Below are positions 9,519 through 20,436 of a stretch of DNA of 64,000 nucleotides, piece after piece (the first letter of the stretch is position 1; each line of letters starts with the position of its first letter). The DNA is from Gaiellaceae bacterium. GTDB lineage: Bacteria > Actinomycetota > Thermoleophilia > Gaiellales > Gaiellaceae. The notes under the pieces are model-generated. The model was not told the DNA's origin, did no database searches, and worked only from the letters and a program-made list of their open reading frames with translations. The DNA is taken from the NCBI GenBank assembly GCA_035708345.1, contig DASSSR010000009.1:25-64024 (forward strand). The letters run 5' to 3'. Position numbers and translations under genes: made by a program.

Positions 9519-10832
9519 GTGAGGACGATCGCGGTGCTGTTCGCGGTCGCGCTGCTCTCCGGGGGTCTCGCGTCCGCCGCGGCGCCTCCGGGCGCCGTGC
9601 CGCGCGATTCGAGCCCCTGGTGGGCGCCGAAGGCGACGATGCTCGCGTTCGACCGCTCGTCGCCGGGGCCCGACGACGGCGACCTCCTCTTCACGCCGGC
9701 CGTGCGCGGCCCCGAGGTGGACATCCTCGGCGCCGGCCGCGTTCGCGGGTTCCGGCCGGGGAGCGGCGACCTGCTGCTCGAGACCGGCTCGTCCACGAGC
9801 GTCGTCGACGGCTCCGACCGGGAGCTGGGCCGGATCCCGGGCGTGGACGCGTCCTGGTCGCCCGACGGGTCGCACGTCGCGTTCCTCCAGGGCGACGCGC
9901 TCGCGGTCGCGGAGGCGAGCGGCGCGAACGTCCGTCAGCTCGCGGCGGGGATCGTCCCGCCGGAGCCCGACGTGACGGGGCCGGTGTGGTCGCCCGACGG
10001 GACGGCGGTCGCGATCGCGACCACCACGGCGGCCGGCTCGGCGATCCTCGTCGCGCCCGTCGACGGCACGCCGGCGCATGCCGCCTTCGACGGGCCGGGC
10101 GACAACGCCGACCCGAGCTGGTCGCGCGACGGCGCGACGATCGCGTTCGACCGCGACACGGGCGGGCGCTGGGCGGTCTGGACGGTCGCTCCCGACGGCA
10201 GCGGGGCGCAGGAGGCGGTCGGCGGCGACGCGAACAACCGGCTGCCGCAGTGGAGCCCGACCGACGACCGGCTCGCGTTCCTGAGCGACCGCGCCGGACC
10301 GTTCGGACTGTACGTCGGCACCGTCGGCGGCTCGCCGCTGAAGCTGATCGGCGACGTCGCGTCCGACGCTCCCGCGCGCTGGTCGCCGACGGGCACGGCG
10401 CTCGCGGTGTCGTCGGCGCGCGACTGCAAGCGGTTCGGCATCTACGTGGTGAGTGCGTCGGCACCGGTGCGGGCGGTGCGGCGGTCGAACCAGTGCCGGA
10501 TCGACGGCACGGCGGGCGGCGACCTCATCCACGGGACGCCGTACTACGACGTCGTCTACGGCTACGGCGGCAACGACTCGATCTTCACCGCCGGCGGCGA
10601 CGACGTGATCTACGGCGGACCGGGCAACGACGCGATCGGCGGCGGGCCGGGGAACGACGTCATCTACGGCGGACCGGGGAACGACGTCCTCTCGGGCAGC
10701 ACCGGGAACGACGTCATCTACGGCGGTCCGGGACGCGACAAGATCGGCTGCGGGCCGGGGAACGACACGGCGTACATCGGGCCGGGCGACACCGTGCGCG
10801 ACTGCGAGCACGTGCACCGCGGCCGCCGCTGA
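9519..10832 (+). CDS. Secreted TolB-like beta-propeller protein with C-terminal RTX (hemolysin-type Ca-binding) repeats
   Basis: Signal peptide present. Repeated WSPDG/WSRDG/WSPT..LAF blades (PD40-type). C-terminal nonapeptide repeats GGxGNDxIYGGPGNDxI occur about 6 times. Confidence 0.8.
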   Translation: MRTIAVLFAVALLSGGLASAAAPPGAVPRDSSPWWAPKATMLAFDRSSPGPDDGDLLFTPAVRGPEVDILGAGRVRGFRPGSGDLLLETGSSTSVVDGSDRELGRIPGVDASWSPDGSHVAFLQGDALAVAEASGANVRQLAAGIVPPEPDVTGPVWSPDGTAVAIATTTAAGSAILVAPVDGTPAHAAFDGPGDNADPSWSRDGATIAFDRDTGGRWAVWTVAPDGSGAQEAVGGDANNRLPQWSPTDDRLAFLSDRAGPFGLYVGTVGGSPLKLIGDVASDAPARWSPTGTALAVSSARDCKRFGIYVVSASAPVRAVRRSNQCRIDGTAGGDLIHGTPYYDVVYGYGGNDSIFTAGGDDVIYGGPGNDAIGGGPGNDVIYGGPGNDVLSGSTGNDVIYGGPGRDKIGCGPGNDTAYIGPGDTVRDCEHVHRGRR

Positions 10833-10865: not shown

Positions 10866-10910
10866 AGTGCCCCCGGCAAGAATCGAACTTGCGCACGCGG
10901 TTTAGGAAAC
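10866..10910. repeat. Left att direct repeat (a partial copy of the tRNA-Arg 3' half)
   Basis: agtgcccccggcaagaatcgaacttgcgcacgcggtttaggaaac is identical to 14553..14597. Confidence 0.95.
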
Positions 10911-10996
10911 GCCCCGGTGATGCCGGCGAAAGTCTCGATTAGCTGAATCTTTGTGCCGACGCGTAGCGTCGCGCGACAGTCGGCGCGACAGTCGCG

Positions 10997-11479
10997 TCAG
11001 TCGTCGAGCGTCTCGGGCGGCTCCGCAGGCGACTCAACGAGACCCATCTGCGCCAGTAGGTAGGCGAGAGCTTCCTCCGCGAAGACGTAGCTCGTTGACG
11101 CCCACTCGTCGAAGCGTTCTGCGGCGACCGCGGCGGGAGCATGTCGCTCGGTCCACTCGGAGAACGCCTGCGCCTGCGTCGGCGGCCCCGGTTCCTCGTA
11201 CTCGCCCGTCGAGGCAACCACCGGCGTCTCACCAGGAGCGGCGCCGTGAAGCGTCGCGAGATCGCTGTCGGCGATCAGGAACGTCAGCACCGGTGCTCCC
11301 GCCGACCCTGCTACGTCAGCGGCGAGCTGCCCGAGGTCTCGCTCCCAGTCTTCGGAGAGGATCGCCCGGCTCCATCCGGTGTCAGCGGACCACGGCAACG
11401 TGAAGTCTTCATCACGATCGACGGCAACGTCGTCCGGCAGTTCACCGCGAACGCCGATGGCTTGCACCCACAATCCCAC
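10997..11479 (-). CDS. Hypothetical acidic protein (island cargo)
   Basis: 160-aa ORF with normal composition and no recognised motif. Confidence 0.6.
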   Translation of the reverse strand: MGLWVQAIGVRGELPDDVAVDRDEDFTLPWSADTGWSRAILSEDWERDLGQLAADVAGSAGAPVLTFLIADSDLATLHGAAPGETPVVASTGEYEEPGPPTQAQAFSEWTERHAPAAVAAERFDEWASTSYVFAEEALAYLLAQMGLVESPAEPPETLDD

Positions 11480-11482
11480 CGC

Positions 11483-11998
11483 CTAACCGTAACCGAGTGA
11501 ACGGCGGAGGATCGCGCGCACGGTCGACGGCCACCACCGCGCGCCCCCTTGCGCCGTCGGTACCTGGTCAGTCGTGAGTCGTCGCCCGATCTCGCCGATG
11601 CTTCTGCCGGCGGCGTGTTCGGCTCTGATTCGCTTGACCACATCGGTCGGAACCGTTGCGCGGCGCCCGGGCTGCGCGGGAGGCAGTGCCTGCCGGCGGG
11701 CTGGGCGGCGGCGTTCCGTGGCGACTCGCTCGAGCTCGTCGACGGGAATCAGCCGCGTGCCCCACGGCATCTCGATCGTCTCGACCAGTGGCAGGACGCG
11801 GCGGTCGAAGGTCGAGCGGCTGACGCCGAGCGCCTCCGCAGCCTGCGTGCGCGTGTAGGCGAGGCGCTCAACTCGCGCCGCTTCGCGGATGATCGCCCCC
11901 GGCGACGTACCCGGCTTCGCGTGGGTGGGCCGGTGGCTTGCTTTCCGGCGCCTGTCGCGGCGGCGCGACATTCGTACACCGTACACGAATACTGACAC
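11483..11998 (-). CDS. Helix-turn-helix DNA-binding protein: excisionase/MerR-like HTH plus resolvase-HTH/recombinase-like segment. An alternative start is ATG 11971.
   Basis: YTRTQAAEALGVSRSTFDRRVLP (Xis-type HTH), GRSIGEIGRRL and ..ARWWPSTVRAILRR (the 'Recombinase'-domain signature of serine recombinases). No catalytic domain is present. Confidence 0.65.
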   Translation of the reverse strand: MSVFVYGVRMSRRRDRRRKASHRPTHAKPGTSPGAIIREAARVERLAYTRTQAAEALGVSRSTFDRRVLPLVETIEMPWGTRLIPVDELERVATERRRPARRQALPPAQPGRRATVPTDVVKRIRAEHAAGRSIGEIGRRLTTDQVPTAQGGARWWPSTVRAILRRSLGYG

Positions 11999-12003
11999 GA
12001 TTT

Positions 12004-12017
12004 TGCATCGCGATGCA
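12004..12017. promoter_or_regulatory. Perfect 14-bp palindrome TGCATCGCGATGCA between the divergent HTH and Fic genes. Candidate operator.
   Basis: Read directly from the sequence. It lies in the AT-richer divergent region, next to the tandem heptamer CGTACAC-CGTACAC at 11973..11986. Confidence 0.35.
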
Positions 12018-12522
12018 TCTGCGTCTCGCTGGCTATTCGGCTATCCGAAGCGTCTGGCTCGCGCCTTCTTTGACTCTGTGGCCACGGATAAGAAGTCGAC
12101 CTATGCGCGCCAAAGGAAAGTCCGACAGGTCCAATTGCTAGATTTGACCGAAGCTATGAGCATGAGCGGAGATAGGTCAAATATCGCCTAGAGGCCGCGG
12201 CCGTCCGAGCCGTGCCGATGTACTGCGCGCTCTCGACCGGGCTGTCGAGGATCTGCAGAGCGTCGGTGGCCTTCCGCTCCCGCTTGAGGCGGAGTCGATC
12301 TGGGAGGGGATCTGGCACGAGGAGGCCCACCATTCGACGGCGATTGAGGGCAACACCCTCGTCCTGAGGGAGGTCGAGCGGCTGCTTGCCGAAGGCAAGG
12401 CTGTCGGGAGCAAGGAGCTCGCCGAGTACCTCGAGGTCGAGGGTTACGCAAAGGGGGCGCAATGGGTCTACGCCCAGGCGGTCGAGCAATCCCGTGATTG
12501 GTCCGGCGCGGAGCGGATCAAC

Positions 12523-13179
12523 TTGACCGAATTGCGTCAGATCCACCGGCTCGTTGTCGAGCCGGCATGGCTGCACTCACCGCCGGAGGGGCTGCACCAG
12601 CGCGAAGGCCCGGGTTCGTTTCGGCAGCACGAAATCCGTCCGTTCGCCGGCGGGATGACGCCGCCGGCGTTTCCGGAGGTTCCGGCGCTCGTCACCGACT
12701 GGCTTCGCGACGCCAACCGAGGGCCGACGAGCGATCAACACCCGATGGTGTTCGTCGCCGATGTCCACGCCCGCTTCGAGCGGATCCACCCTTTCCGCGA
12801 CGGGAACGGGCGCGTTGGTCGCCTGGCCACGAACCTTCTTCTGGTTCGGCATGGCTATCCGCCTGCGGTGATCCACAAGCGGGACCGGACGCGCTATCTC
12901 AACGCCCTCAGACGTGCTGATCGGGGCGATCCAGAACCCCTCGCGGAGATGTTCGCGCGTTCCGTAACGGATGGCATCCACCGTTTCCTGCTGCCGGGCT
13001 TGGCCGGACCGCATCGGTTGGTCCCACTGCGGTCGCTTGCTGACGGCGAGCTCTCTGGCAACGCCCTCGCCGTCGCCGCGAAGCGCGGCCGACTCCGCGC
13101 AGTACGGCGGACGGATCAGTGGTACTCGAGCAGGCAGTGGGTCGAGGAGTACAAGCAGCGCCGCTACCAGCGCGGCTGA
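12523..13179 (+). CDS. Fic/Fido-domain protein (AMPylase-type). The homologous reading frame continues upstream to 12166 without an ATG/GTG/TTG.
   Basis: Canonical Fic motif HPFRDGNGRVGR. The in-frame upstream translation ...LRALDRAVEDLQSVGGLPLP..WHEEAHHSTAIEGNTLVLREVERLLAEGK.. is a typical Fic N-terminal region with an S-x-x-x-E-G inhibitory-helix motif. Confidence 0.8.
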   Translation: MTELRQIHRLVVEPAWLHSPPEGLHQREGPGSFRQHEIRPFAGGMTPPAFPEVPALVTDWLRDANRGPTSDQHPMVFVADVHARFERIHPFRDGNGRVGRLATNLLLVRHGYPPAVIHKRDRTRYLNALRRADRGDPEPLAEMFARSVTDGIHRFLLPGLAGPHRLVPLRSLADGELSGNALAVAAKRGRLRAVRRTDQWYSSRQWVEEYKQRRYQRG

Positions 13180-13215
13180 ATTCGACCTACTAGAGCGCTC
13201 GGAAAAGCGAACAGG

Positions 13216-14391
13216 TCAACTTGTCGCCCCGCGAACCTGAGCGATGCGCGAAGCGCTGTCCGCGCGGGTGAGGTACGCGTCGACGAGCGCTGCCGCTTCG
13301 GCCTCCGAACCTGGCATGAGCTTGCCGTAGAGGTCGTACGTCGTCTGGATCGACGCGTGACCCATGTACGTGGTGATCGCCTTTGCGTTCACGCCCGCGG
13401 CGATGAGAATCGACGCGAAGGTGTGTCTCGCCTCGTGGAGTCCGATCGGCTCGACGCCTGCGCGCTTCCATGCGCTCCGGGCGCGGCGCCAGACGTTGGA
13501 CGGCTGGAAGGGAGCGTGACCGCCGAAGACGAGTGTGTCGGCTCGAGCCTGGTTCGCCTTGTGCTCCACGAGGATGTCGCGAAGCGCGCCGACGATCGGG
13601 ATCGTTCGGCGGCCGGCGCGGCTCTTCGGCTCGACCTCGAGGCGGGCCTTCTCGTCGTACGCCCGCTAGACGCGGATTACGCCGTTGGCGAGGTCGACGT
13701 CGTCCCACCGGAGAGCCATGAGTTCGCCACGGCGGAGGCCGGCGTATAACGCGGTCGCCCACACTGGTCGGTCCCGAGCGGGGAGTGCAGCGAGCAGCTG
13801 CTCCGCCTCTTGCGGCGATGCGATCCGTTCCCGACGGCCGCGGACTGCGGGTAGGCGAAGGTGCATGCATGGGTTGACTGCGACGTCGCCATCCTCGACC
13901 GCGCGACGGAAGATCACGCGCAGGGGCATGAGGGCGTTCCGGATGGTCGACGGGTCGCGACCCTCGGCGAGCAAGTCGTCGGCGATCCGCTGGACGTCGC
14001 GATGCTGCACGTCGCCGAGGCGAGTTCGGCCGATCCGCGGAACGACGCGATCGCGGAGCGCGGCCTCGTAGCTCCGGATCGCGCTCGGCTTGTACGGGTC
14101 GCCCGACCGGGTGCGGACGCGGCCCGACTTCATCCCTGCGACGAGCTCCTGCGCCGCCTCGGCGACCGTCGTGTGCGCCGGCGCCCGCAGCGTTCCTCGT
14201 CGGACGCCGGTCTGCGTCTCGGCGCGCCACGCTCGCGCTTCGGCGAGCGTCGCGAACGTCTTTCGGATGCGCTTCGACTCCCGCGCGCTCCAGACGCTCG
14301 CCTGGTACGTCGGGTCGCAGCTGCAGCGAGCGCAGCGGCGCGAGGCGCACGCCTTCTTGTGCCGAACCTCGATGCCCGTTCGCTGCGCCAT
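13216..14391 (-). pseudogene. Tyrosine recombinase/integrase interrupted by one in-frame TAG (13668..13666)
   Basis: Track ORFs 13666..14583 (real start MAQRTG at 14391) and 13216..13569 are in the same frame. The bridging translation ..ANGVIRV*RAYDEKARLEVEPKSRAGRRTIPIVGALRDILVEH.. is continuous integrase sequence. C-terminal catalytic residues are present: HEARHTFAS and Y in GHASIQTTYDLYG. Confidence 0.85.
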
Positions 14392-14552
14392 GACGTGAAC
14401 GCTAGAAGGGGCATCGGACGTTCCGCGCGACAGTCGCGCGACAGGCTCACGGTCCCGCTGGCCGTCTCGGCCGACGACACCGTCCGCCGCCGACAAGTCA
14501 GTAAGAAAGAAAGAATTCCTGCAAACTGGCCGGTTCTTGCAGGACAATCGGA

Positions 14553-14597
14553 AGTGCCCCCGGCAAGAATCGAACTTGCGCACGCGGTTTAGGAAAC
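14553..14597. repeat. Right att direct repeat (inside tRNA-Arg)
   Basis: Identical to 10866..10910. Confidence 0.95.
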
Positions 14598-14626
14598 CGC
14601 TGCTCTATCCACTGAGCTACGGGGGC
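14555..14626 (-). tRNA. tRNA-Arg (anticodon CCT)
   Basis: The minus-strand sequence GCCCCCGTAGCTCAGTGGATAGAGCAGCGGTTTCCTAAACCGCGTGCGCAAGTTCGATTCTTGCCGGGGGCA folds as a 72-nt cloverleaf: 7-bp acceptor stem, anticodon loop TTCCTAA, T-loop TTCGATT. CCA is not encoded. Confidence 0.95.
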
Positions 14627-14665
14627 GCCGCGCGCAGGGTACCGCCACGCCCCCGCGCAGCCTCG

Positions 14666-16318
14666 CTACGCGGCCGGTGAGACATGCAGCGCATACCGCG
14701 GCGTCGTGCGATTCGAGCTGCACTGCTCGACGTCGATCGCGAAGCGCGTCCGCGGCGGCACTCTGAACGAGTACGTCAGCGTCGGCCGGCCGGGCGCGGT
14801 GCAGCCGCCGCCGTTGCCGAGGTAGTTCCGCCCGGGATTGACGGGGTCGAAGTCCTCGGCGTACGCGGCGCTGAACAGCCGCTGCGTCGACGCGGCTCGC
14901 ACGGTCACCGTCACGCACCGCCCGCCGCCGCTCGCGTTCTCGAAGCCGTGCACGGCATACCGGACGGTGCGCACCCGCACGTGCGGCGTCTTCGGCTTCT
15001 TCCTGCAGGAGGACGCCGCCGCCGTCCGGCCCAGCACGTTCGTGTGCACCGGCGCCCCCGGAGCCGACACGCCCGCCGCGGCTGCGCCGATCGCGGCGGC
15101 CGCCGCCGCGACGACGACGGCGACGAGCGCTCGCAGCCGCGCGAAGAGGAGGACGAGCACGAGCGCCGCCAGCACGAGGTCGCGGGCGAGCACGAGCCAC
15201 GACGCGCGCGGGTCGAAGGCGAACGCGAGGTCGAGATACCTGCGCGGGAACCAGAGCTGCGTCAGCACGAGCGAGCAGACGAGCAGCGCCGTCGCGGCGG
15301 CGCCGCGGCGGCCGCGCACGAGCGGCACGAGCGGGATCAACCAGACCAGGTACTGCGGCGACAGCACCTTGCTCAGGACGATGAACGTGCAGACCGCGGC
15401 GGCGGAGAACCGCAGCAGGCGCTCTCGCGTCGCCGGGCCGCGCGCGAACGCGACCCACAGCGCGAGCAGCGCGAGCGGCGCGAGCACACCCTGTGCCGTG
15501 GCGACGGCGTGCGGCAACGAGCCGGCGAGGTTGTCCGACCCGTGCGAGGTGACCTTCGCGATCGGCAGCCCCCACGTCTGGTGCGCCGCGAGCAGGAAGC
15601 CGGAGCCGAGGCTCTCGATCTGCAGCGGCCGGCTGAGCTGCCCCGCGAGGCTCTCCCAGACCCCGTGCGGCGCGAGCGCCACGAACGGCAGGAACACCGC
15701 GACCGCCACGACGGCCGCGATCGCCCCGCAGATCACCGCCTCGCGGCGGCCCCGGCGCCGCCAGACGTAGGCGAGCGCGATCGGCACGAGCACGCCCGGG
15801 TAGATCTTCGCCGCGAAGCCGAGGCCGAGCGCGGCGAGACCGAGCCGCGGCCGTCGCGCGAGCAGCGCCGCGACGCCCGCGACGGTCAACAGCGCCGGCC
15901 ACAGGTCGAACCGCGAGAGCACCACCGAGCCGAGCGCGAGCGGCGCCAGCCCGACGAGCAGCGCCCGCACGAGCCGACGGCGCGGCGGTCCCGGCTCTCG
16001 CAGCAGCACGGCCGCCGCGAGCGCCGTCGCGAGCGCGCCGCATACGAACAGCCCCGCCTCGAAGACGATCCGGTAACGGACGTAGTGGCCGGGGCCCGCG
16101 ACCGCCGAGGGGACGACGAAGAACGGCAGCGCTCCGGGCGGGTACTCGACCGAGAAGTCCCGGTACGGCACGCGATGCCCGCGCACGACGGCGTCGCCGT
16201 ACCGCTCGTACACCGGCAGGTCGGACAGCCGGCTGCGGTTGAAGAAGCCGAGATGCAGGGCCGCGAACGCGACTGCGAACGCGGCGACCGAGACGAGGAT
16301 GAGCTTGGTCGAGGCCAC
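14666..16318 (-). CDS. Polytopic membrane glycosyltransferase (GT87/DUF2029-like, polyprenol-phosphate-sugar dependent type) with a C-terminal extracytoplasmic domain
   Basis: 550 aa with about 10 TM segments. Motifs typical of GT-C mannosyltransferase-like proteins are present (DFSVEYPPGALPFF, AAKIYPGVL, LSPQYLVWL). The soluble tail is about 120 aa. Confidence 0.7.
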   Translation of the reverse strand: MASTKLILVSVAAFAVAFAALHLGFFNRSRLSDLPVYERYGDAVVRGHRVPYRDFSVEYPPGALPFFVVPSAVAGPGHYVRYRIVFEAGLFVCGALATALAAAVLLREPGPPRRRLVRALLVGLAPLALGSVVLSRFDLWPALLTVAGVAALLARRPRLGLAALGLGFAAKIYPGVLVPIALAYVWRRRGRREAVICGAIAAVVAVAVFLPFVALAPHGVWESLAGQLSRPLQIESLGSGFLLAAHQTWGLPIAKVTSHGSDNLAGSLPHAVATAQGVLAPLALLALWVAFARGPATRERLLRFSAAAVCTFIVLSKVLSPQYLVWLIPLVPLVRGRRGAAATALLVCSLVLTQLWFPRRYLDLAFAFDPRASWLVLARDLVLAALVLVLLFARLRALVAVVVAAAAAAIGAAAAGVSAPGAPVHTNVLGRTAAASSCRKKPKTPHVRVRTVRYAVHGFENASGGGRCVTVTVRAASTQRLFSAAYAEDFDPVNPGRNYLGNGGGCTAPGRPTLTYSFRVPPRTRFAIDVEQCSSNRTTPRYALHVSPAA

Positions 16319-16355
16319 GAACGGCGGGCAGCGCCCGCGATCATATTCCGACCGA

Positions 16356-17144
16356 CTACTCGAACGCCTCGCCGCGCTCCCATTCGTGCTCGAACGCGAG
16401 CTTGAGCAGGCGCGCGAGCGCGGGATGCTCGACGACCATGATCGTCAGGTCGGTGGGCCCGGCGACGGGATCCTCCATCGTGAACAGCGAGACCCGCTCG
16501 TCGACGATCACGAGCTTCAGCGGCAGCTCGTCGACGACGCGCGCCTGCTCGCCCGACGCGACGAACGCGTGCACGGCGTCGACCACCGCCTCGTCCTCGT
16601 AGACCGACCGCTCGTACACGCTCCGCGCCTCGACGCCGCGCTCCAGCAGCTCGCGCCCGGCGACGTTCTCCGGCGGCTCGACGGCGTACGGCGGCTTCGT
16701 GAAGACGAGGATCTCCCGCTCCGCCGCCGCCTCCAGCTCGGCGAAGCGCTTCGCGATCGCGCCCGGCTCGCGCAGCACCTCGATGTAGTCGAGCGGATCG
16801 CTCGCGTCGCGGCCCTCGCGGTAGGCCGGGCCGAGCAGGGCCGCCGTCTCGGCCGCCGCCCGCTCGAGCTGCTCGAGCTCCGCACGGCGCTCCGCGAGGA
16901 GCGCGGCGACGGCGTCGTCGGGCGGCGCCGCGCGGTAGCGCGCCGGCCGGCCCGGCTCGACGCTGGCGAGCCCGCGGCGGACGAGACCGTCCAGGACGTC
17001 GTAGATCCGCTGCCGCGGCAGCGAGGCGAGCCGGGCCACCTCGGCCCCCGTCGCCCGCTCGCGGCGCGTCAGGGCGACGTAGGCGCTCGCCTCGTACCCC
17101 GTCAGGCCCAGCTCCGTCAGCGTCCCGGCCGCCAGTTGATCCAC
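16356..17144 (-). CDS. TrmB-family transcriptional regulator
   Basis: The N-terminal wHTH LGLTGYEASAYVALTRRERATGAEVARLASLPRQRIYDVLDGLVRRGL is the TrmB signature. The C-terminal effector-type domain is present. Confidence 0.85.
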   Translation of the reverse strand: MDQLAAGTLTELGLTGYEASAYVALTRRERATGAEVARLASLPRQRIYDVLDGLVRRGLASVEPGRPARYRAAPPDDAVAALLAERRAELEQLERAAAETAALLGPAYREGRDASDPLDYIEVLREPGAIAKRFAELEAAAEREILVFTKPPYAVEPPENVAGRELLERGVEARSVYERSVYEDEAVVDAVHAFVASGEQARVVDELPLKLVIVDERVSLFTMEDPVAGPTDLTIMVVEHPALARLLKLAFEHEWERGEAFE

Positions 17145-17153
17145 CGTTCAAGC

Positions 17154-17178
17154 TTGTCACCACGGAGAGTGGTTACAC
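17154..17178. promoter_or_regulatory. Imperfect palindrome TTGTCACCAC-GGAGA-GTGGTTACAC in the trmB/secreted-protein divergent region. Candidate operator.
   Basis: 8 of 10 arm positions are complementary. It lies 10 nt upstream of the trmB GTG (17144). Confidence 0.25.
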
Positions 17179-17233
17179 AAGCGGCGAACCGGGGTAGGGG
17201 GCGCTCACCTTTGCACCGGACAGGAGGCATCTC

Positions 17234-18289
17234 GTGACCCGCATCACCCTCTCGCTCGCCGTCGCGCTCGCCGCGTGCGCGGTGCTCGGCGCCGCCTCGG
17301 CGTCCGCCGACGTCGGGCCGATCCAGACGTCGGCGAAGCACTTCTTCTGGGCGCCGAACCAGTCGGTCGACGCACAGACGACCGCCGACTCGGCGGCGAA
17401 CGACCTCGTCTGGCACGGCGGCAACGCCGGCGCCGGCGCGATCGGCGTCGAGACGCAGCCCGCGGTCTACCTCGTCTTCTGGGGCCCGCAGTGGGCGACC
17501 GGCTTCCAGACGGCAGACACCGACGGGACGCTCTACTCCTCGAAGACGCTGCAGAGCTACCTCAAGGCGTTCTTCGGCAGCGTCGGCGGCAGCCCGTGGG
17601 CGAACATCCAGACGCAGTACTGCAACGTGCTCCTGCCCGGCTCGTCCTCGTGCGTCGGCGGCTCGGGCTTCGTCACCAACCCGACGAAGCAATTGAAGGG
17701 CGTCTGGACGGATCCGACGCCGGTCCCCGACGACATCATCGCGGCCGGGCTCGCGCAGAACCTGATCGACGACCCGATCGCGCAGGAGGCGATCCGCGCC
17801 TCCGCGCACTTCGGCTACGACGCGCAGGCGACGTACATCGTCTTCACGCCGCCCAGCACGATCGCGACCGGTCAGCCCGTCTACTGCGGCTACCACACGC
17901 AGACGTCGAGCGTCGACGGCCTCGGCAACCCGTACCGGATTCAGTACGCGTTCATCCCGTGGCTGAACGAGAACTGGCCGGTGGTCGGCTCGTCCGGCTG
18001 CGGCATGCACTTCGTCAACGCGACCTCTGACGCCTTCGGGAACGGGATCTTCGACGGCTACTCGATCGTCACCGGGCACGAGTACGCCGAGGCGGTCACC
18101 GACCCCGACAACATCGCGTCGTGGCAGGACGGCTGGCTGGACGCGCAGGGGAACGAGAACGGCGACAAGTGCGCGTGGGCCGCGAACACGCAGAACATCA
18201 CGCTCGGCACGCACCAGTTCGCCGTGCAGCCGCTCTGGAGCAACGAGGCGTACGACGCGACCGGCAACGGCTGCGTCGTCGGCCGTTGA
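17234..18289 (+). CDS. Secreted hypothetical protein (Cys-containing, family not recognised)
   Basis: 351 aa with the signal peptide MTRITLSLAVALAACAVLGAASASA. A GGAGG lies 8 nt upstream of the GTG. Confidence 0.75.
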   Translation: MTRITLSLAVALAACAVLGAASASADVGPIQTSAKHFFWAPNQSVDAQTTADSAANDLVWHGGNAGAGAIGVETQPAVYLVFWGPQWATGFQTADTDGTLYSSKTLQSYLKAFFGSVGGSPWANIQTQYCNVLLPGSSSCVGGSGFVTNPTKQLKGVWTDPTPVPDDIIAAGLAQNLIDDPIAQEAIRASAHFGYDAQATYIVFTPPSTIATGQPVYCGYHTQTSSVDGLGNPYRIQYAFIPWLNENWPVVGSSGCGMHFVNATSDAFGNGIFDGYSIVTGHEYAEAVTDPDNIASWQDGWLDAQGNENGDKCAWAANTQNITLGTHQFAVQPLWSNEAYDATGNGCVVGR

Positions 18290-18312
18290 GGGGACGATCT
18301 GCGGCGGCCGGC

Positions 18313-18344
18313 GGCCGGCGGGCGACGAGCGTCGTCCGCCGGCC
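18313..18344 (+). terminator. GC-rich hairpin downstream of 17234..18289 (no U-tract)
   Basis: ggccggcgggcgacg / cgtcgtccgccggcc arms (one G-T pair) starting 24 nt after the stop codon. Confidence 0.4.
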
Positions 18345-18370
18345 GCGTCCCGGCCCGCTCACGGCGGTTC

Positions 18371-18387
18371 CTTACGCGACGCTTACG
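18371..18387 (+). promoter_or_regulatory. Direct repeat CTTACG-N5-CTTACG upstream of the S1C protease gene
   Basis: CTTACG at 18371..18376 and at 18382..18387, which is 25-41 nt upstream of GTG 18412. Confidence 0.3.
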
Positions 18388-18411
18388 GATCCCCGGTACT
18401 AGTGAAGGCCC

Positions 18412-19419
18412 GTGCGTACGCCTCGCCTGCTCGCCGCCGTCGTCACCGCCTCCGCGCTCGCCGTCGGCGGCGCCTCGACCGCGGCCGCCGCGAAGCCCAA
18501 GCCGAAGCCCGCGCCGAAGCCGTCGCCGACGCGGGGCGTCGTGCTCGTGAACACGAACCTCGCGCTCGAGAACGCGAGCGCCGCGGGCACCGGCATCGTC
18601 CTGACGAAGGACGGCGAGGTGCTGACGAACAACCACGTGATCCGCGGCGCGACGACGATCAAGGTCGCCGTCCCGGCGACGAAGAAGACGTACTCCGCCA
18701 CCGTCGTCGGCTACGACATCGTCGACGACATCGCGCTGCTGAAGCTGCAGGGCGCGACGAATCTCGCCACAGCGACGCGCGGCAACTCGGCGACGCTGAA
18801 GCTCGGCGCGTCGACGACCGCGGTCGGGAACGCGAACGGCGGCGGCAAGCTCGTCGTCACGCACGGCCGCGTCACCGCGCTGAACAAGACGATCTCGGTG
18901 CAGGACGACAACGGCGACGTCCACGCGCTCGCGAACCTGATCCAGACGAGCGCACGGCTCGTGCCCGGGGACTCCGGCGGCCCGCTGCTCGACGCGAAGG
19001 GCCGCGTGATCGGCATCGACGCGGCCGGCTCGCCGACCTTCGCGTTCGACGCGAACGCGCCCGGCTACGCGATCCCGATCAACAAGGCGTGGACGATCGT
19101 CGGCCAGATCCGCGCCGGCCGCTCCTCGGCGACGGTGCACATCGGCGAGACGGCGTTCGTCGGCCTCTTCGTGCAGGCGGGCCCGAGCGGCAGCCTCGTC
19201 GTCCAGGACATCGTCGCCGGCTCGCCCGCGGCGCAGGCGGGGCTCGTCAAGGGCGACACGGTCACGTCGATCGACTCCAGGCCGGTGACGACGTTCGACG
19301 ACGTCCGCGACGTGCTCTTCGCACACCATCCCGGCGACTCGATCACCGTCGGCTACACCGACACGCTCGGCAACCAGACGAGCACGACGATCGTGCTCGC
19401 TAGCGGTCCGCCGCAGTAG
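18412..19419 (+). CDS. Secreted trypsin-like serine protease, S1C (HtrA/DegP-like) with a C-terminal PDZ domain
   Basis: Catalytic triad context TNNHVI / DIALLKL / GDSGGPL. A PDZ-like GLFVQAGPSGSLVVQDIVAGSPAAQAGLVKGDTVTSID is present, together with a signal peptide. Confidence 0.9.
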   Translation: MRTPRLLAAVVTASALAVGGASTAAAAKPKPKPAPKPSPTRGVVLVNTNLALENASAAGTGIVLTKDGEVLTNNHVIRGATTIKVAVPATKKTYSATVVGYDIVDDIALLKLQGATNLATATRGNSATLKLGASTTAVGNANGGGKLVVTHGRVTALNKTISVQDDNGDVHALANLIQTSARLVPGDSGGPLLDAKGRVIGIDAAGSPTFAFDANAPGYAIPINKAWTIVGQIRAGRSSATVHIGETAFVGLFVQAGPSGSLVVQDIVAGSPAAQAGLVKGDTVTSIDSRPVTTFDDVRDVLFAHHPGDSITVGYTDTLGNQTSTTIVLASGPPQ

Positions 19420-19858
19420 CGAGCCCGGTCGGCTCGTACCGCTTCACGCGCACGTCGCCGCCGGTGACCGGGCCGCCGCACGCCGCGCAGGTGTGCTCGA
19501 GCTCGAGCTCGGCGCCGCACTCGTGCTCCCACACGGTCACGCGGGAGCAGGGGGCCCAGCGGTCGCCCCAGCGGGCGAGGCCGAGCAGGATCGGGCGCAG
19601 CTCGCGGCCGGCCTCCGTCAGCCGGTACTCGTGGCGCTGCGGCCGCTCCTGGTAGAGCCGCCGCTCGAGCACGCCGACCTCCTCGAGCCGCCGCAGCCGC
19701 GCCGTCAGCACGTCCCGCGGCGCCCCCGTGTTCCGGCGGATCTCGTCGAAGCGGTGGACGCCGAGCGCGAGCTCCCGGACGACGAGGAACGACCACTTCT
19801 CGCCGAGGAAGGCGAGCGACGAGGCGATCGAGCAGGGCCGGGGATCGACGTCGTCCAC
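19400..19858 (-). CDS. HxlR-family transcriptional regulator with a C-terminal Cys-rich (zinc-ribbon-like) tail
   Basis: CSIASSLAFLGEKWSFLVVRELALGVHRFDEIRRNTGAPRDVLTARLRRLEEVGVLER is the HxlR wHTH. The tail reads HECGAELELEHTCAACG. The start is placed at GTG 19858. Confidence 0.85.
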   Translation of the reverse strand: MDDVDPRPCSIASSLAFLGEKWSFLVVRELALGVHRFDEIRRNTGAPRDVLTARLRRLEEVGVLERRLYQERPQRHEYRLTEAGRELRPILLGLARWGDRWAPCSRVTVWEHECGAELELEHTCAACGGPVTGGDVRVKRYEPTGLATAADR

Positions 19859-19880
19859 GGACGCAGTGTGCCAGAGCGGG

Positions 19881-19910
19881 TTGACTTGTCCAACCCGTAA
19901 CGAGTAGGTT
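19881..19910 (+). promoter_or_regulatory. Candidate sigma-70-type promoter for the GNAT gene: TTGACT, 18 nt, TAGGTT
   Basis: -35 TTGACT at 19881..19886 and -10 TAGGTT at 19905..19910. The ATG lies 15 nt downstream, so the leader is very short. The region overlaps the GGGTTG/CAACCC inverted repeat. Confidence 0.3.
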
Positions 19911-19924
19911 TTTCCAACTGACGT

Positions 19925-20422
19925 ATGCACACCCGGCTGATCACCCCCAGGCGCGGCCCGACCCTCCTCGTCCGGCCGCTCCGCGACGGCGACACCGCCA
20001 CCGTGCTCGCCGTCTTCGAGCGGCTCGGCCCGGAGTCGCGCCGGACGCGCTTCAACGGCCCGAAGCCGTGCCTGAGCGACGTCGAGCTCCGCCACCTCGC
20101 CCGCGTCGACGGCTCCCACCACGCGCTCGTCGCCTGGGTGGAGACCGACCCGGCGCCGGCGGCGATCGCCCGGCTCGCGCGCACGGGCCGCGGCAGCGCC
20201 GAGGTCGCCTTCGCCGTCGCGGACGAGTACCAGGCGCGCGGGATCGGCGCCGCGCTCGCCGCGGAGCTCGTCGCCGACGCGCGCATGGCGGGGATCACGG
20301 AGATCACCGCGCTGACCTCGCCCGACAATCCGGCGGCGCTGGCGGTCGTCCGCCGCATCGGCCGGATCGTCGACGTCTGCTTCGAGGGCCCGGAGCTCTC
20401 TGTCCGCGCGGCGATCGCGTAG
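19925..20422 (+). CDS. GNAT-family N-acetyltransferase
   Basis: 165 aa with the acetyl-CoA binding block VADEYQARGIGAALAAELV. Confidence 0.85.
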   Translation: MHTRLITPRRGPTLLVRPLRDGDTATVLAVFERLGPESRRTRFNGPKPCLSDVELRHLARVDGSHHALVAWVETDPAPAAIARLARTGRGSAEVAFAVADEYQARGIGAALAAELVADARMAGITEITALTSPDNPAALAVVRRIGRIVDVCFEGPELSVRAAIA

Positions 20423-20436
20423 CTACATTCCGCGGC

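What the first reader, a model, noticed from the sequence alone, without database searches (positions are those of the whole stretch)
10866..14626. Minimal 3.7-kb integrative element in tRNA-Arg(CCT) carrying a Fic gene
A 45-bp sequence is present twice in direct orientation, at 10866..10910 and 14553..14597. The right copy is the 3' 43 nt of an intact tRNA-Arg(CCT), from the anticodon stem to the discriminator base, plus 2 nt. This is the classic signature of site-specific integration into a tRNA gene that regenerates the tRNA. Between the repeats lie four genes: a tyrosine integrase next to the tRNA, an Xis/HTH-type gene, a Fic gene and one acidic hypothetical. An AT-richer divergent control region is centred near 12000..12200. 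There are no conjugation, replication or phage structural genes. The element is therefore either a satellite/mobilisable islet or the remnant of a larger element.
Basis: partly seen in the sequence, partly recalled or inferred. Interest (0 to 1): 0.6.

Follow-up and report, generated by a model that had tools for sequence, protein, structure and literature searches.

The report
Small broken tRNA-Arg integrative element
A 3.7-kb mobile DNA element carrying a Fic (protein-AMPylating) gene sits in a tRNA-Arg gene of a soil Gaiellaceae bacterium; it belongs to a widespread family of tiny cargo-swapping elements, but this copy looks recently disabled.

Summary
A perfect 45-bp direct repeat (10866-10910 / 14553-14597) brackets 3.7 kb next to an intact tRNA-Arg(CCT). 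The four genes are as described, and there are no transfer, replication or phage structural genes.

The interpretation also holds. Near-identical elements (Int 96%, Fic 97.5% aa; 98.4% nt over 1.3 kb) lie at the same tRNA with the same att boundaries in metagenome contigs. Their host genes are only 51-80% identical to this genome, and their flanks differ. In one of them the displaced att copy keeps a different T-stem.

The small size is native. Relatives with the same integrase, HTH partner and conserved arm-type repeats are mostly 3.5-6.6 kb (one is 17 kb) and carry different cargo. None has transfer genes.

This copy has two single-base lesions. An in-frame amber replaces integrase codon 242 (CAG in the closest relative). 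The Fic start codon is ATA where relatives have ATG. It is therefore probably immobilised and silenced.

No empty site with matching flanks was found.

This is an ordinary kind of element, a new member in an uncultured lineage.

The parts
14554..14626 (-). Intact tRNA-Arg(CCT). Its 3' part (from position 30) is the proximal att core.
   Evidence: ARAGORN. Rfam RF00005, 70 bits. 73/73 identical to the tRNA next to the related elements in L053 and L056.
14553..14597 (.). Proximal att core copy (attR-type junction), inside the tRNA gene.
   Evidence: Perfect 45-bp direct repeat D8. The identity block starts at the same tRNA position in all family members.
14497..14543 (.). Conserved A/T-rich tract and 7-bp inverted repeat (CCTGCAA / TTGCAGG) between the tRNA and the arm repeats. 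Possible bending or core-type site, or int promoter region.
   Evidence: Conserved across the window, L053, L056, L034, L035 and L041 in the alignment. The function is inferred.
14425..14446 (+). Two tandem arm-type repeats (GCGCGACAGTC / GCGCGACAGGC) just upstream of the int start. Candidate P-arm integrase-binding sites.
   Evidence: 2-4 tandem copies at this position in every family member examined. Four of the window's five GCGCGACAG matches lie in the element.
13216..14391 (-). Tyrosine integrase gene, 391 codons, interrupted by an in-frame TAG at 13666-13668 (codon 242). Probable pseudogene.
   Evidence: Intact 388-393-aa homologs reach 96% identity. Codon 242 is CAG in L056 and GAG or AAG in others. 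K256, H319, R322, H345 and the Tyr region lie downstream of the stop.
12181..13179 (+). Class II (FICD/SoFic-like) Fic gene, 332 codons, convergent with int. The start codon position reads ATA (12181-12183) where relatives have ATG.
   Evidence: It has the HPFRDGNGR motif and the N-terminal inhibitory TAIEGN motif. PDB FICD E 7e-25; PADLOC SoFic E 6e-30. Family members are 332 aa.
11972..12180 (.). Divergent control region, GC about 0.58, with the conserved palindrome TGCATCGCGATGCA at 12004-12017.
   Evidence: Composition. The palindrome is perfect in L056 and has one mismatch in L053/L055, within otherwise divergent sequence. No sigma-70 consensus match.
11483..11971 (-). HTH partner gene (162 aa): an N-terminal winged-helix-like domain plus a C-terminal three-helix domain resembling part of the serine-integrase recombinase domain. 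Candidate directionality factor or regulator.
   Evidence: It co-occurs with the integrase lineage, including the members that target tRNA-SeC and tRNA-Trp.
10997..11479 (-). Acidic 160-aa orphan ORF in the element's variable cargo slot.
   Evidence: No family in four libraries. 45 homologs, with Gaiellaceae among the named ones. The homologs examined lie outside Int-Fic elements. Single copy in the MAG.
10971..10993 (+). Two tandem arm-type repeats (GCGCGACAGTC x2) 60-80 nt inside the distal att copy. Candidate P'-arm sites.
   Evidence: Conserved at the distal end of L053-L056 and L106-L111.
10866..10910 (.). Distal att core copy (attL-type junction): the displaced 3' part of the tRNA.
   Evidence: Homology to the related elements ends here.

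Best explanation
This is a horizontally acquired, 3.7-kb site-specific integrative element of a family widespread in Gaiellaceae.

Mechanism (inferred from the anatomy). A 391-aa tyrosine integrase recombines an element-borne att site with tRNA-Arg(CCT). The element's att site contains the tRNA from the anticodon stem to the 3' end. Integration puts the element downstream of the tRNA and replaces the tRNA's 3' part with the element's copy. The host's original 3' part is left as the distal repeat. Tandem (G/A)ACTGTCGCGC repeats near both ends are the likely arm-type integrase-binding sites. The conserved two-domain HTH protein is the likely directionality factor or regulator, acting at a conserved palindrome in the divergent control region.

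Cargo. The payload is a class II Fic AMP-transferase of the SoFic/FICD type, plausibly a toxic defence or addiction function. An orphan acidic protein occupies a second, variable slot.

Transfer. The element has no transfer or replication genes, so it must rely on outside routes to move between cells. The route is unknown.

State of this copy. The integrase carries an amber codon ahead of most catalytic residues, and Fic has lost its start codon. The copy is probably a recently immobilised and silenced relic with intact att and arm sites.
For: Architecture:
- Perfect 45-bp repeat and intact tRNA.
- Gene families.

Mobility:
- L056-L058 carry the same element, 3.69 kb, at the same tRNA. Homology starts and ends at the att copies.
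- Int and Fic are 96% and 97.5% identical in protein, and 98.4% in DNA over 12632-13932. Host genes beside L056 match this genome at only 51-80% aa.
- L056's distal att copy has a different, pair-compensated T-stem, as expected for a displaced host tRNA half.
- Element GC is 67.6% against 73.2% for the genome. GC3 is 0.76-0.84 against 0.95-0.96 for flanking genes.
- 20 of 20 same-genus tRNA-Arg(CCT) loci lack these genes. Several carry relic partial tRNA copies, which marks the site as a hot spot.

Family:
- The same Int + HTH + arm repeats occur with other cargo at 3.5-6.6 kb, and once at 17 kb. No transfer genes were found.
- Arm repeats are conserved at both ends.

Fic class:
- FICD alignment with the TAIEGN and HPFxDGNGR motifs.
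- PADLOC SoFic, E 6e-30.
- SoFic is a class 2 Fic defence protein (PMC12249575).

Lesions:
- TAG against CAG in near-identical context.
- ATA against ATG.
- The family Fic length is 332 aa.
- No CUA-anticodon tRNA among the 33 tRNAs found.
Against: - No empty site with the window's own flanks was found.
- The genome is a 66%-complete MAG, so the TAG and ATA could be minority alleles or consensus errors. The broken integrase fragments are not recorded in any independent assembly.
- The HTH protein's role is not established: HTH_17 is below Pfam's cut-off and there is no significant global fold match.
- The arm-motif count for the whole window is not above chance. Only its clustering and conservation are informative.
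- Fic's role in defence is inferred from HMM similarity only.
Confidence: 0.8

Rival explanations
1. The element is fully active. On this reading the amber codon and the ATA start are assembly or consensus artefacts or minority alleles, or they are tolerated through readthrough or weak non-canonical initiation.
For: The source is a fragmented MAG of 89 contigs, 66% complete. The att repeats are 45/45 identical and the arm sites are intact. Apart from the two changes, both genes are 96-97.5% identical to intact copies.
Against: Substitution errors that create a stop and destroy a start within 1.5 kb of each other are unlikely in a consensus assembly. No suppressor tRNA was found, though the MAG is incomplete. 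The public annotation of this contig calls Fic as a 218-aa fragment, and no integrase product is on record. Integrase and Fic decay is common in the family.
Confidence: 0.13
2. It is a phage satellite or a mobilisable element that depends on a helper phage or a conjugative element for excision control and transfer.
For: It has no transfer genes of its own, yet it has clearly moved between hosts. Fic-like proteins match phage protein families (phrog_11900, E 4e-30). Tycheposons are comparable small tRNA elements found in vesicles and capsids (10.1101/2020.12.28.424599).
Against: Neither this element nor ten relatives contain a packaging, capsid, primase, relaxase or oriT-related family. The integrase has no close relative in 50,697 phage or 72,556 plasmid records; the best is 33% identity or less.
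Confidence: 0.2
3. It is the remnant of a larger prophage or actinomycete conjugative element (AICE) that lost most of its genes by deletion.
For: Relic att copies with gene-poor content occur at this tRNA in relatives, for example G023 with one gene and no integrase. Tandem decayed arrays also exist (L115, L106).
Against: Independent copies in different hosts share the same 3.5-3.9-kb layout and both arm-site clusters. The 17-kb relative also lacks Rep, Tra and phage genes. The att repeats here are perfect.
Confidence: 0.04

Closest known systems
tRNA-integrated genomic islands/islets driven by lambda-type tyrosine integrases with arm-type sites (general class; anticodon-loop-to-3'-end att cores as catalogued by Williams 2002, recalled from memory)
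   Same: The integrase sits next to the tRNA 3' end. A 44-45-bp att core spans the anticodon stem to the 3' end. The tRNA is regenerated. Arm-type repeats lie at both ends. There is a small HTH partner. Composition is foreign.
   Different: It is very small (3.7 kb) and has no phage, replication or transfer genes. The integrase lineage is 33% identical or less to any annotated phage or plasmid integrase. This copy's integrase is broken.
Tycheposons of Prochlorococcus (Hackl et al., bioRxiv 10.1101/2020.12.28.424599)
   Same: These are also tyrosine-recombinase elements at specific tRNAs. They have swap-in cargo, integrase subclades matched to tRNA targets, tandem arrays separated by partial tRNA copies, and degenerate remnants that build islands. 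They have no conjugation genes.
   Different: Tycheposons usually carry a 2-4-kb replication module (primase, helicase or polymerase), and about 15% carry packaging genes. No such module is present here or in the relatives examined. The host phylum and habitat differ. Whether the integrases fall in the same clade was not tested.
Actinomycete integrative and conjugative elements, AICEs (Ghinet et al. 2011, PMC3218068)
   Same: The host is an actinobacterium, and a tyrosine integrase plus an Xis-like gene integrate into a tRNA gene.
   Different: AICEs are defined by Rep (RepSA, RepAM or Prim-Pol) and FtsK/SpoIIIE Tra modules. Neither is present.
SoFic single-gene anti-phage defence, a class 2 Fic AMPylase (PMC12249575)
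   Same: It has an N-terminal inhibitory helix motif and a canonical Fic loop. It matches the PADLOC SoFic model at E 6e-30, and it is carried on a mobile element.
   Different: Sequence similarity to solved SoFic is weak (E 2e-6), and FICD is closer. There is no room for a small downstream antitoxin like AS1, because only 36 bp separate the Fic and int stops. This copy lacks a start codon. Activity is untested.
CIMEs, cis-mobilisable att-flanked elements without their own recombinase (recalled from memory: the Streptococcus ICESt family literature)
   Same: If the amber is real, this copy has intact att and arm sites but no working integrase. It could move only with an integrase supplied in trans.
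   Different: The integrase gene is still present and nearly intact. No second integrase of this lineage is present in the 66%-complete MAG.

Membership tests
tRNA-targeting tyrosine-integrase integrative element | Tyrosine recombinase gene adjacent to the 3' end of the target tRNA | tested here: met
   int at 13216-14391 starts 163 nt from the tRNA 3' end. PF00589 and phrog_1 match both halves.
tRNA-targeting tyrosine-integrase integrative element | Direct repeat of the tRNA 3' part at the distal boundary | tested here: met
   45/45 identical repeat.
tRNA-targeting tyrosine-integrase integrative element | Same element in different genomic contexts, or presence/absence polymorphism | tested here: met
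   L053-L058 have different flanks, with homology ending at the att copies. 20 of 20 same-genus loci lack the genes. No empty site with identical flanks was found.
tRNA-targeting tyrosine-integrase integrative element | Intact integrase with the catalytic R-K-H-R-H-Y set in one polypeptide | tested here: not met
   The residues are conserved in the alignment, but the TAG at codon 242 separates the first Arg from K256, H319, R322, H345 and the Tyr.
tRNA-targeting tyrosine-integrase integrative element | Detectable excision (attP circle and attB junction) | not testable with these tools
AICE (PMC3218068) | Replication module (RepSA, RepAM/DUF3631 or Prim-Pol) | tested here: not met
   No such Pfam or NCBIfam hit in any ORF of the element.
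AICE (PMC3218068) | FtsK/SpoIIIE-type Tra protein (PF01580) | tested here: not met
   No hit. It is also absent from the 17-kb relative.
Phage satellite (PICI / P4-like) | Packaging or helper-hijacking genes (terS, capsid, primase-replicase, etc.) | tested here: not met
   PHROGs gave only integrase, excisionase-like and unknown (Fic) families.
Tycheposon (10.1101/2020.12.28.424599) | tRNA-specific tyrosine recombinase plus cargo, with partial-tRNA-separated arrays | tested here: met
   Cargo varies on a common backbone. Tandem relic arrays occur in L106 and L115.
Tycheposon (10.1101/2020.12.28.424599) | Replication module (primase/helicase/polymerase), and membership of the tycheposon integrase clade | tested here: not met
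   No replication genes. Membership of the integrase clade was not tested.
SoFic-type class 2 Fic defence | Fic active-site motif HxFx(D/E)GNGRxxR | tested here: met
   HPFRDGNGRVGR aligns to FICD's HPFIDGNGRTSR.
SoFic-type class 2 Fic defence | N-terminal inhibitory helix motif (S/T)xxxE(G/N) | tested here: met
   STAIEGN aligns to FICD's TVAIEGN.
SoFic-type class 2 Fic defence | Match to the defence-system model | tested here: inconclusive
   PADLOC SoFic E 6e-30, 103 bits, but no curated cut-off is given. NCBIfam SoFic scores 34 bits against a cut-off of 550.
SoFic-type class 2 Fic defence | Translatable full-length gene, and anti-phage activity | tested here: not met
   The start position reads ATA and there is no alternative start before codon 115 of the 332 (12523). 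Activity cannot be tested here.
Excisionase / recombination directionality factor | Small Xis/MerR-type winged-helix protein encoded with the integrase | tested here: inconclusive
   HTH_17 scores 18.9 bits against a cut-off of 27. phrog_66 'excisionase and transcriptional regulator' E 2.8e-4. The model shows a wHTH-like N-domain, but no significant fold hit was found. It does co-occur consistently with the integrase lineage.

The most novel reading that the evidence does not exclude
The Int + HTH + arm-site backbone defines a family of ultra-minimal 'gene shuttles' in soil Gaiellaceae, an actinobacterial counterpart of marine tycheposons. Members are 3.5-6.6 kb and have no replication or transfer module at all. 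They exchange one or two toxin- or defence-like cargo genes (Fic, DUF6932/Xre, orphans) and spread between genera by a route that is not self-encoded, such as vesicles, transduction or transformation. Successive insertions build tRNA-proximal islands.
Probability: 0.35. Interest if true: 0.55.

Novelty: new member of a known kind. Interest (0 to 1): 0.3.

Why it matters
Gaiellaceae are abundant soil actinobacteria that are almost entirely uncultured, and their mobile elements are essentially undescribed. A full-text search for Gaiellales + integrase + tRNA returned one unrelated paper.

This locus and its relatives give a complete paper model of a minimal integration system: att core, arm sites, integrase, partner protein and operator. 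That model could be tested in plasmid assays, and the system might be developed as an integration tool for high-GC actinobacteria.

The data also show that tRNA-Arg(CCT) is a recurrent hot spot where small cargo elements arrive and decay. That is useful for reading genomic islands in MAGs.

For this window itself the result is modest: an ordinary integrative islet, probably dead.

Tried and rejected
1. Empty-site search. Exact look-ups of both flanking proteins found nothing. 43 metagenome loci carry orthologs of the left-flank PD40-RTX gene (76% aa or less). None has tRNA-Arg, GT87 or the element downstream, and synteny is lost there. The tRNA neighbourhood is not conserved even within the genus. 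No conclusion is possible by this route.

2. Read-level tests of the TAG, the ATA and excision joints.

3. Independent records of the truncated integrase products. None are on record.

4. Amber suppression. No CUA-anticodon tRNA was found among 33 tRNAs, though the MAG is incomplete.

5. Promoter and terminator consensus scans of the element. No matches.

6. Known RNA families. Only the tRNA was found.

7. Older att relics elsewhere in the window. None.

8. Acidic ORF as conserved element cargo. Rejected, because its homologs sit in ordinary chromosomal contexts.

9. GTG at frame codon 19 as the lost Fic start. Rejected, because that position is simply a variable Val codon (GTG, GTC or GTA). 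The real family start is the ATG at 12181-equivalent.

10. Fold search for the HTH partner. No significant global hit.


Full report
**Observation**

The window contains a perfect 45-bp direct repeat at 10866-10910 and 14553-14597. It is the only perfect repeat of that length in the 8 kb examined. The right copy lies inside an intact tRNA-Arg(CCT), called at 14554-14626 on the minus strand by ARAGORN and at 70 bits by Rfam. The repeat runs from tRNA position 30, in the anticodon stem, to the 3' end plus 1-2 nt.

Four genes lie between the copies:
- **Integrase:** a tyrosine integrase at 13216-14391, minus strand.
- **Fic:** a Fic gene whose frame is open from 12166 to 13179, plus strand.
- **HTH gene:** at 11483-11971, minus strand. 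It has weak HTH_17/HTH_8 hits, and its C-terminal 50 residues match part of the serine-integrase 'Recombinase' domain (PF07508).
- **Acidic ORF:** 160 aa at 10997-11479, with no family in any library.

The HTH-Fic intergenic region is AT-richer, with GC 0.58. No conjugation, replication or phage structural family was detected in Pfam, NCBIfam, PHROGs or PADLOC.

**Two lesions the finding's text does not mention**

The integrase reading frame contains an in-frame TAG at 13666-13668, codon 242 of 391. The Fic frame has no ATG, GTG or TTG before 12523. I confirmed them independently and can explain them from relatives, as described below.

**Source organism**

The window is contig C9 of a MAG of 2.02 Mb in 89 contigs, 66% complete. 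Named homologs come from Gaiellaceae MAGs.

**Evidence that the element is mobile**

The integrase, read through the stop, has thousands of homologs. Many are intact proteins of 388-393 aa, up to 96% identical. The contigs encoding the two closest (P0002, P0003) show the same layout:
- tRNA-Arg(CCT), identical 73/73;
- the integrase 163 nt downstream;
- a convergent Fic gene;
- the HTH gene;
- a 43-44-nt copy of the tRNA 3' part, 3.69 kb from the tRNA (L056-L058), or 5.07 kb where an IS3-family transposase has inserted (L053).

A DNA alignment of the window's element with L056 gives these identities:

| Region | Nucleotide identity |
|---|---|
| Integrase 3' half and Fic 3' half | 97-100% |
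| Integrase 5' half | about 90% |
| HTH gene | about 70% |
| Fourth gene | none |
| Outside the att copies | none |

The element is therefore a mosaic, and its homology boundaries coincide with the att sites.

The flanking genes differ. L056 has DUF4234 and an aminotransferase on one side and GalK/LacI on the other. The window has PD40-RTX on one side and GT87 on the other. The host genes beside L056 do have orthologs in this MAG, but at only 51-80% aa identity. Int is 96% identical and Fic 97.5%, and the DNA is 98.4% identical over 12632-13932. That contrast requires recent horizontal movement.

In L056 the distal att copy differs from the tRNA in the T-stem by paired changes (AA to TG and TT to CG). 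This is what is expected if the element brought its own tRNA 3' half and displaced the host's. It also places the crossover within the 20 nt spanning the anticodon stem-loop and variable region.

Composition agrees with a foreign origin. Element GC is 67.6% against 73.2% for the genome, within the lowest 1% of equal-sized windows. GC3 is 0.76-0.84 against 0.95-0.96 in the flanking host genes.

At least five of those loci have relic partial tRNA copies 0.6-16 kb downstream. One (G023) encloses a single gene and no integrase. The site is a recurrent hot spot.

**Cis elements**

The motif GCGCGACAG occurs five times in the 64-kb window, which is about the number expected by chance. However, four of the five are two tandem pairs inside the element, at 14425-14446 just upstream of int and at 10971-10993 just inside the distal att.

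In element orientation the unit is (G/A)ACTGTCGCGC. Two to four tandem copies stand at the same two positions in every family member examined, including divergent ones. I read them as arm-type integrase-binding sites; this is inferred.

Two other features are conserved. A 7-bp inverted repeat with an A/T-rich tract lies between the tRNA and the arm repeats. The palindrome TGCATCGCGATGCA (12004-12017) lies upstream of the HTH gene. It is perfect in L056 and has one mismatch in L053, within otherwise divergent sequence. That fits an operator.

**Is it a remnant of something larger?**

No. The same integrase lineage, together with the HTH partner and arm repeats, occurs at several sizes:

| Integrase identity to window | Loci | Cargo | Size |
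|---|---|---|---|
| 87% | L106-L108 | DUF6932 plus Xre-type genes | 3.5-3.9 kb |
| 87% | L109-L111 | unknown genes plus a 38-aa Fic relic | 6.6 kb |
| 89% | L114 | not examined | 5.5 kb |
| 74% | L112 | see below | 17 kb |

The 17-kb relative carries GrpB, PD40 and PQQ propeller proteins and unknowns. It still has no Rep, Tra or phage genes.

Cousins at 60-69% identity sit beside tRNA-SeC and tRNA-Trp. Some of these also have the HTH partner, and one is a 4.3-kb element with a 63-nt att copy. The integrase is 33% identical or less to any integrase in 50,697 phage and 72,556 plasmid records.

Small size is therefore the family's normal state. The backbone is Int + HTH + arm sites. There is one cargo slot between int and the HTH gene and another between the HTH gene and the distal arm sites. 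How such elements pass between cells is not shown by anything here.

**The cargo**

The Fic protein aligns with human FICD over residues 44-267 (E 7e-25). The alignment includes the N-terminal inhibitory-helix motif (TAIEGN) and the catalytic loop (HPFRDGNGR), so it is a class 2 Fic. It matches the PADLOC SoFic model at E 6e-30. SoFic is a class 2 Fic reported to act as a toxic, abortive-infection-type anti-phage protein (PMC12249575). A defence or addiction role is therefore plausible but untested.

The acidic ORF belongs to a 45-member orphan family. Its other members sit in ordinary chromosomal contexts. Here it is variable cargo of unknown function.

**The HTH partner**

An AlphaFold model built from six family sequences (pLDDT 72) shows two parts joined by a disordered linker: an N-terminal helix-helix-hairpin-helix unit and a C-terminal three-helix bundle. 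Foldseek finds no significant global match. Locally, 55 residues superpose on the recombinase domain of large serine integrases at 1.4 A rmsd. The weaker hits are MerR/BldC/ArsR-type winged helices.

Its constant association with the integrase makes a directionality-factor or regulator role the best guess. That role is not established.

**State of this copy**

At integrase codon 242 the closest relative has CAG within a near-identical 60-nt context. Other relatives have GAG or AAG. The window's TAG is therefore a single transition. It falls upstream of K256, H319, R322, H345 and the catalytic Tyr region.

For Fic, the L056-L059 copies open with ATG (M-S-P-R-G-R-G-R-P...), giving the family-typical 332 aa, and L053 has the same ATG bases. 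The window reads ATA at 12181-12183. The public annotation of this contig calls only a 218-aa fragment from TTG 12523, and no integrase product is on record. No amber-suppressor tRNA is present among the 33 tRNAs recovered, and no second integrase of this lineage is in the MAG.

The att repeats are still 45/45 identical and the arm sites are intact. The simplest reading is a recently acquired element that has just been disabled at both its recombinase and its potentially toxic cargo.

The caveat is that this is a MAG consensus.

**Comparison with known systems**

- **Works like:** a lambda-type tRNA-integrating island, with an att core from the anticodon stem to the 3' end, arm sites, and Int plus a small HTH partner.
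- **Not an AICE:** it has no Rep and no FtsK-type Tra, which are the defining modules in PMC3218068.
- **Not a recognisable phage satellite:** it has no packaging or hijacking genes.
- **Closest concept:** the tycheposon (10.1101/2020.12.28.424599). Both have tRNA-specific tyrosine recombinases, swap-in cargo, tandem arrays separated by partial tRNAs, and decayed remnants that build islands. This element lacks the replication module typical of tycheposons.
- **Functional state:** with a broken integrase, this copy is effectively CIME-like.

The scan has also flagged other minimal tRNA islets in unrelated genomes (I did not check them).

**Verdict**

The finding is real and correctly interpreted. 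It is an ordinary kind of mobile element and a new member in an undescribed lineage. Two things add modest interest: the family of ultra-small cargo shuttles it belongs to, and the fresh double inactivation in this copy.

Noticed in passing
window 14280-14391 (integrase N-terminus): His11, Cys15, Cys23 and Cys25 are invariant across 13 integrase homologs. They may form a zinc-binding motif in the arm-binding domain.
   Followed up: no
L017 5418-5444 and L020 10024-10049 (same-genus genomes G008, G012): Perfect 26-27-nt copies of the 5' half of tRNA-Arg(CCT) lie 1.8-2.5 kb from the tRNA on its 5' side. Integration at the 3' end does not explain them.
   Followed up: no
L112 2083-19047 (G129) and window 9519-10832: A 17-kb relative of the element carries three PD40 beta-propeller genes as cargo. 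In the window, the gene immediately outside the distal att is also a PD40 + RTX-repeat secreted protein. Its orthologs elsewhere are not next to tRNA-Arg. It might be an older island cargo, but no older att relic is detectable.
   Followed up: partly
L054 2262-2366; L109 3460-3573: Fic decays repeatedly in this element family. One variant is frameshifted, and another keeps only a 38-aa C-terminal relic beside an intact integrase.
   Followed up: partly
L106 9070-9111 and 12432-12465; L115 5475-5515 and 10410-10447: Tandem arrays of att copies lie downstream of tRNA-Arg(CCT). This indicates successive insertions, with older, decayed elements pushed distally.
   Followed up: partly
window 14627-20434: Between tRNA-Arg and the aminotransferase/ABC-transporter cluster the window has about 5.8 kb (GT87 glycosyltransferase, TrmB-like regulator, secreted protein). 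The syntenic L056 has only a DUF4234 gene there. GT87 has paralogs on contigs C16 (73% nt) and C50.
   Followed up: no
The neighbouring palindrome is conserved.
   Followed up: yes
L053 13480-14717: An IS3-family transposase (HTH_Tnp_1 + rve) has inserted inside one copy of the element. A PhdYeFM/ParE toxin-antitoxin pair lies just outside its distal att.
   Followed up: no
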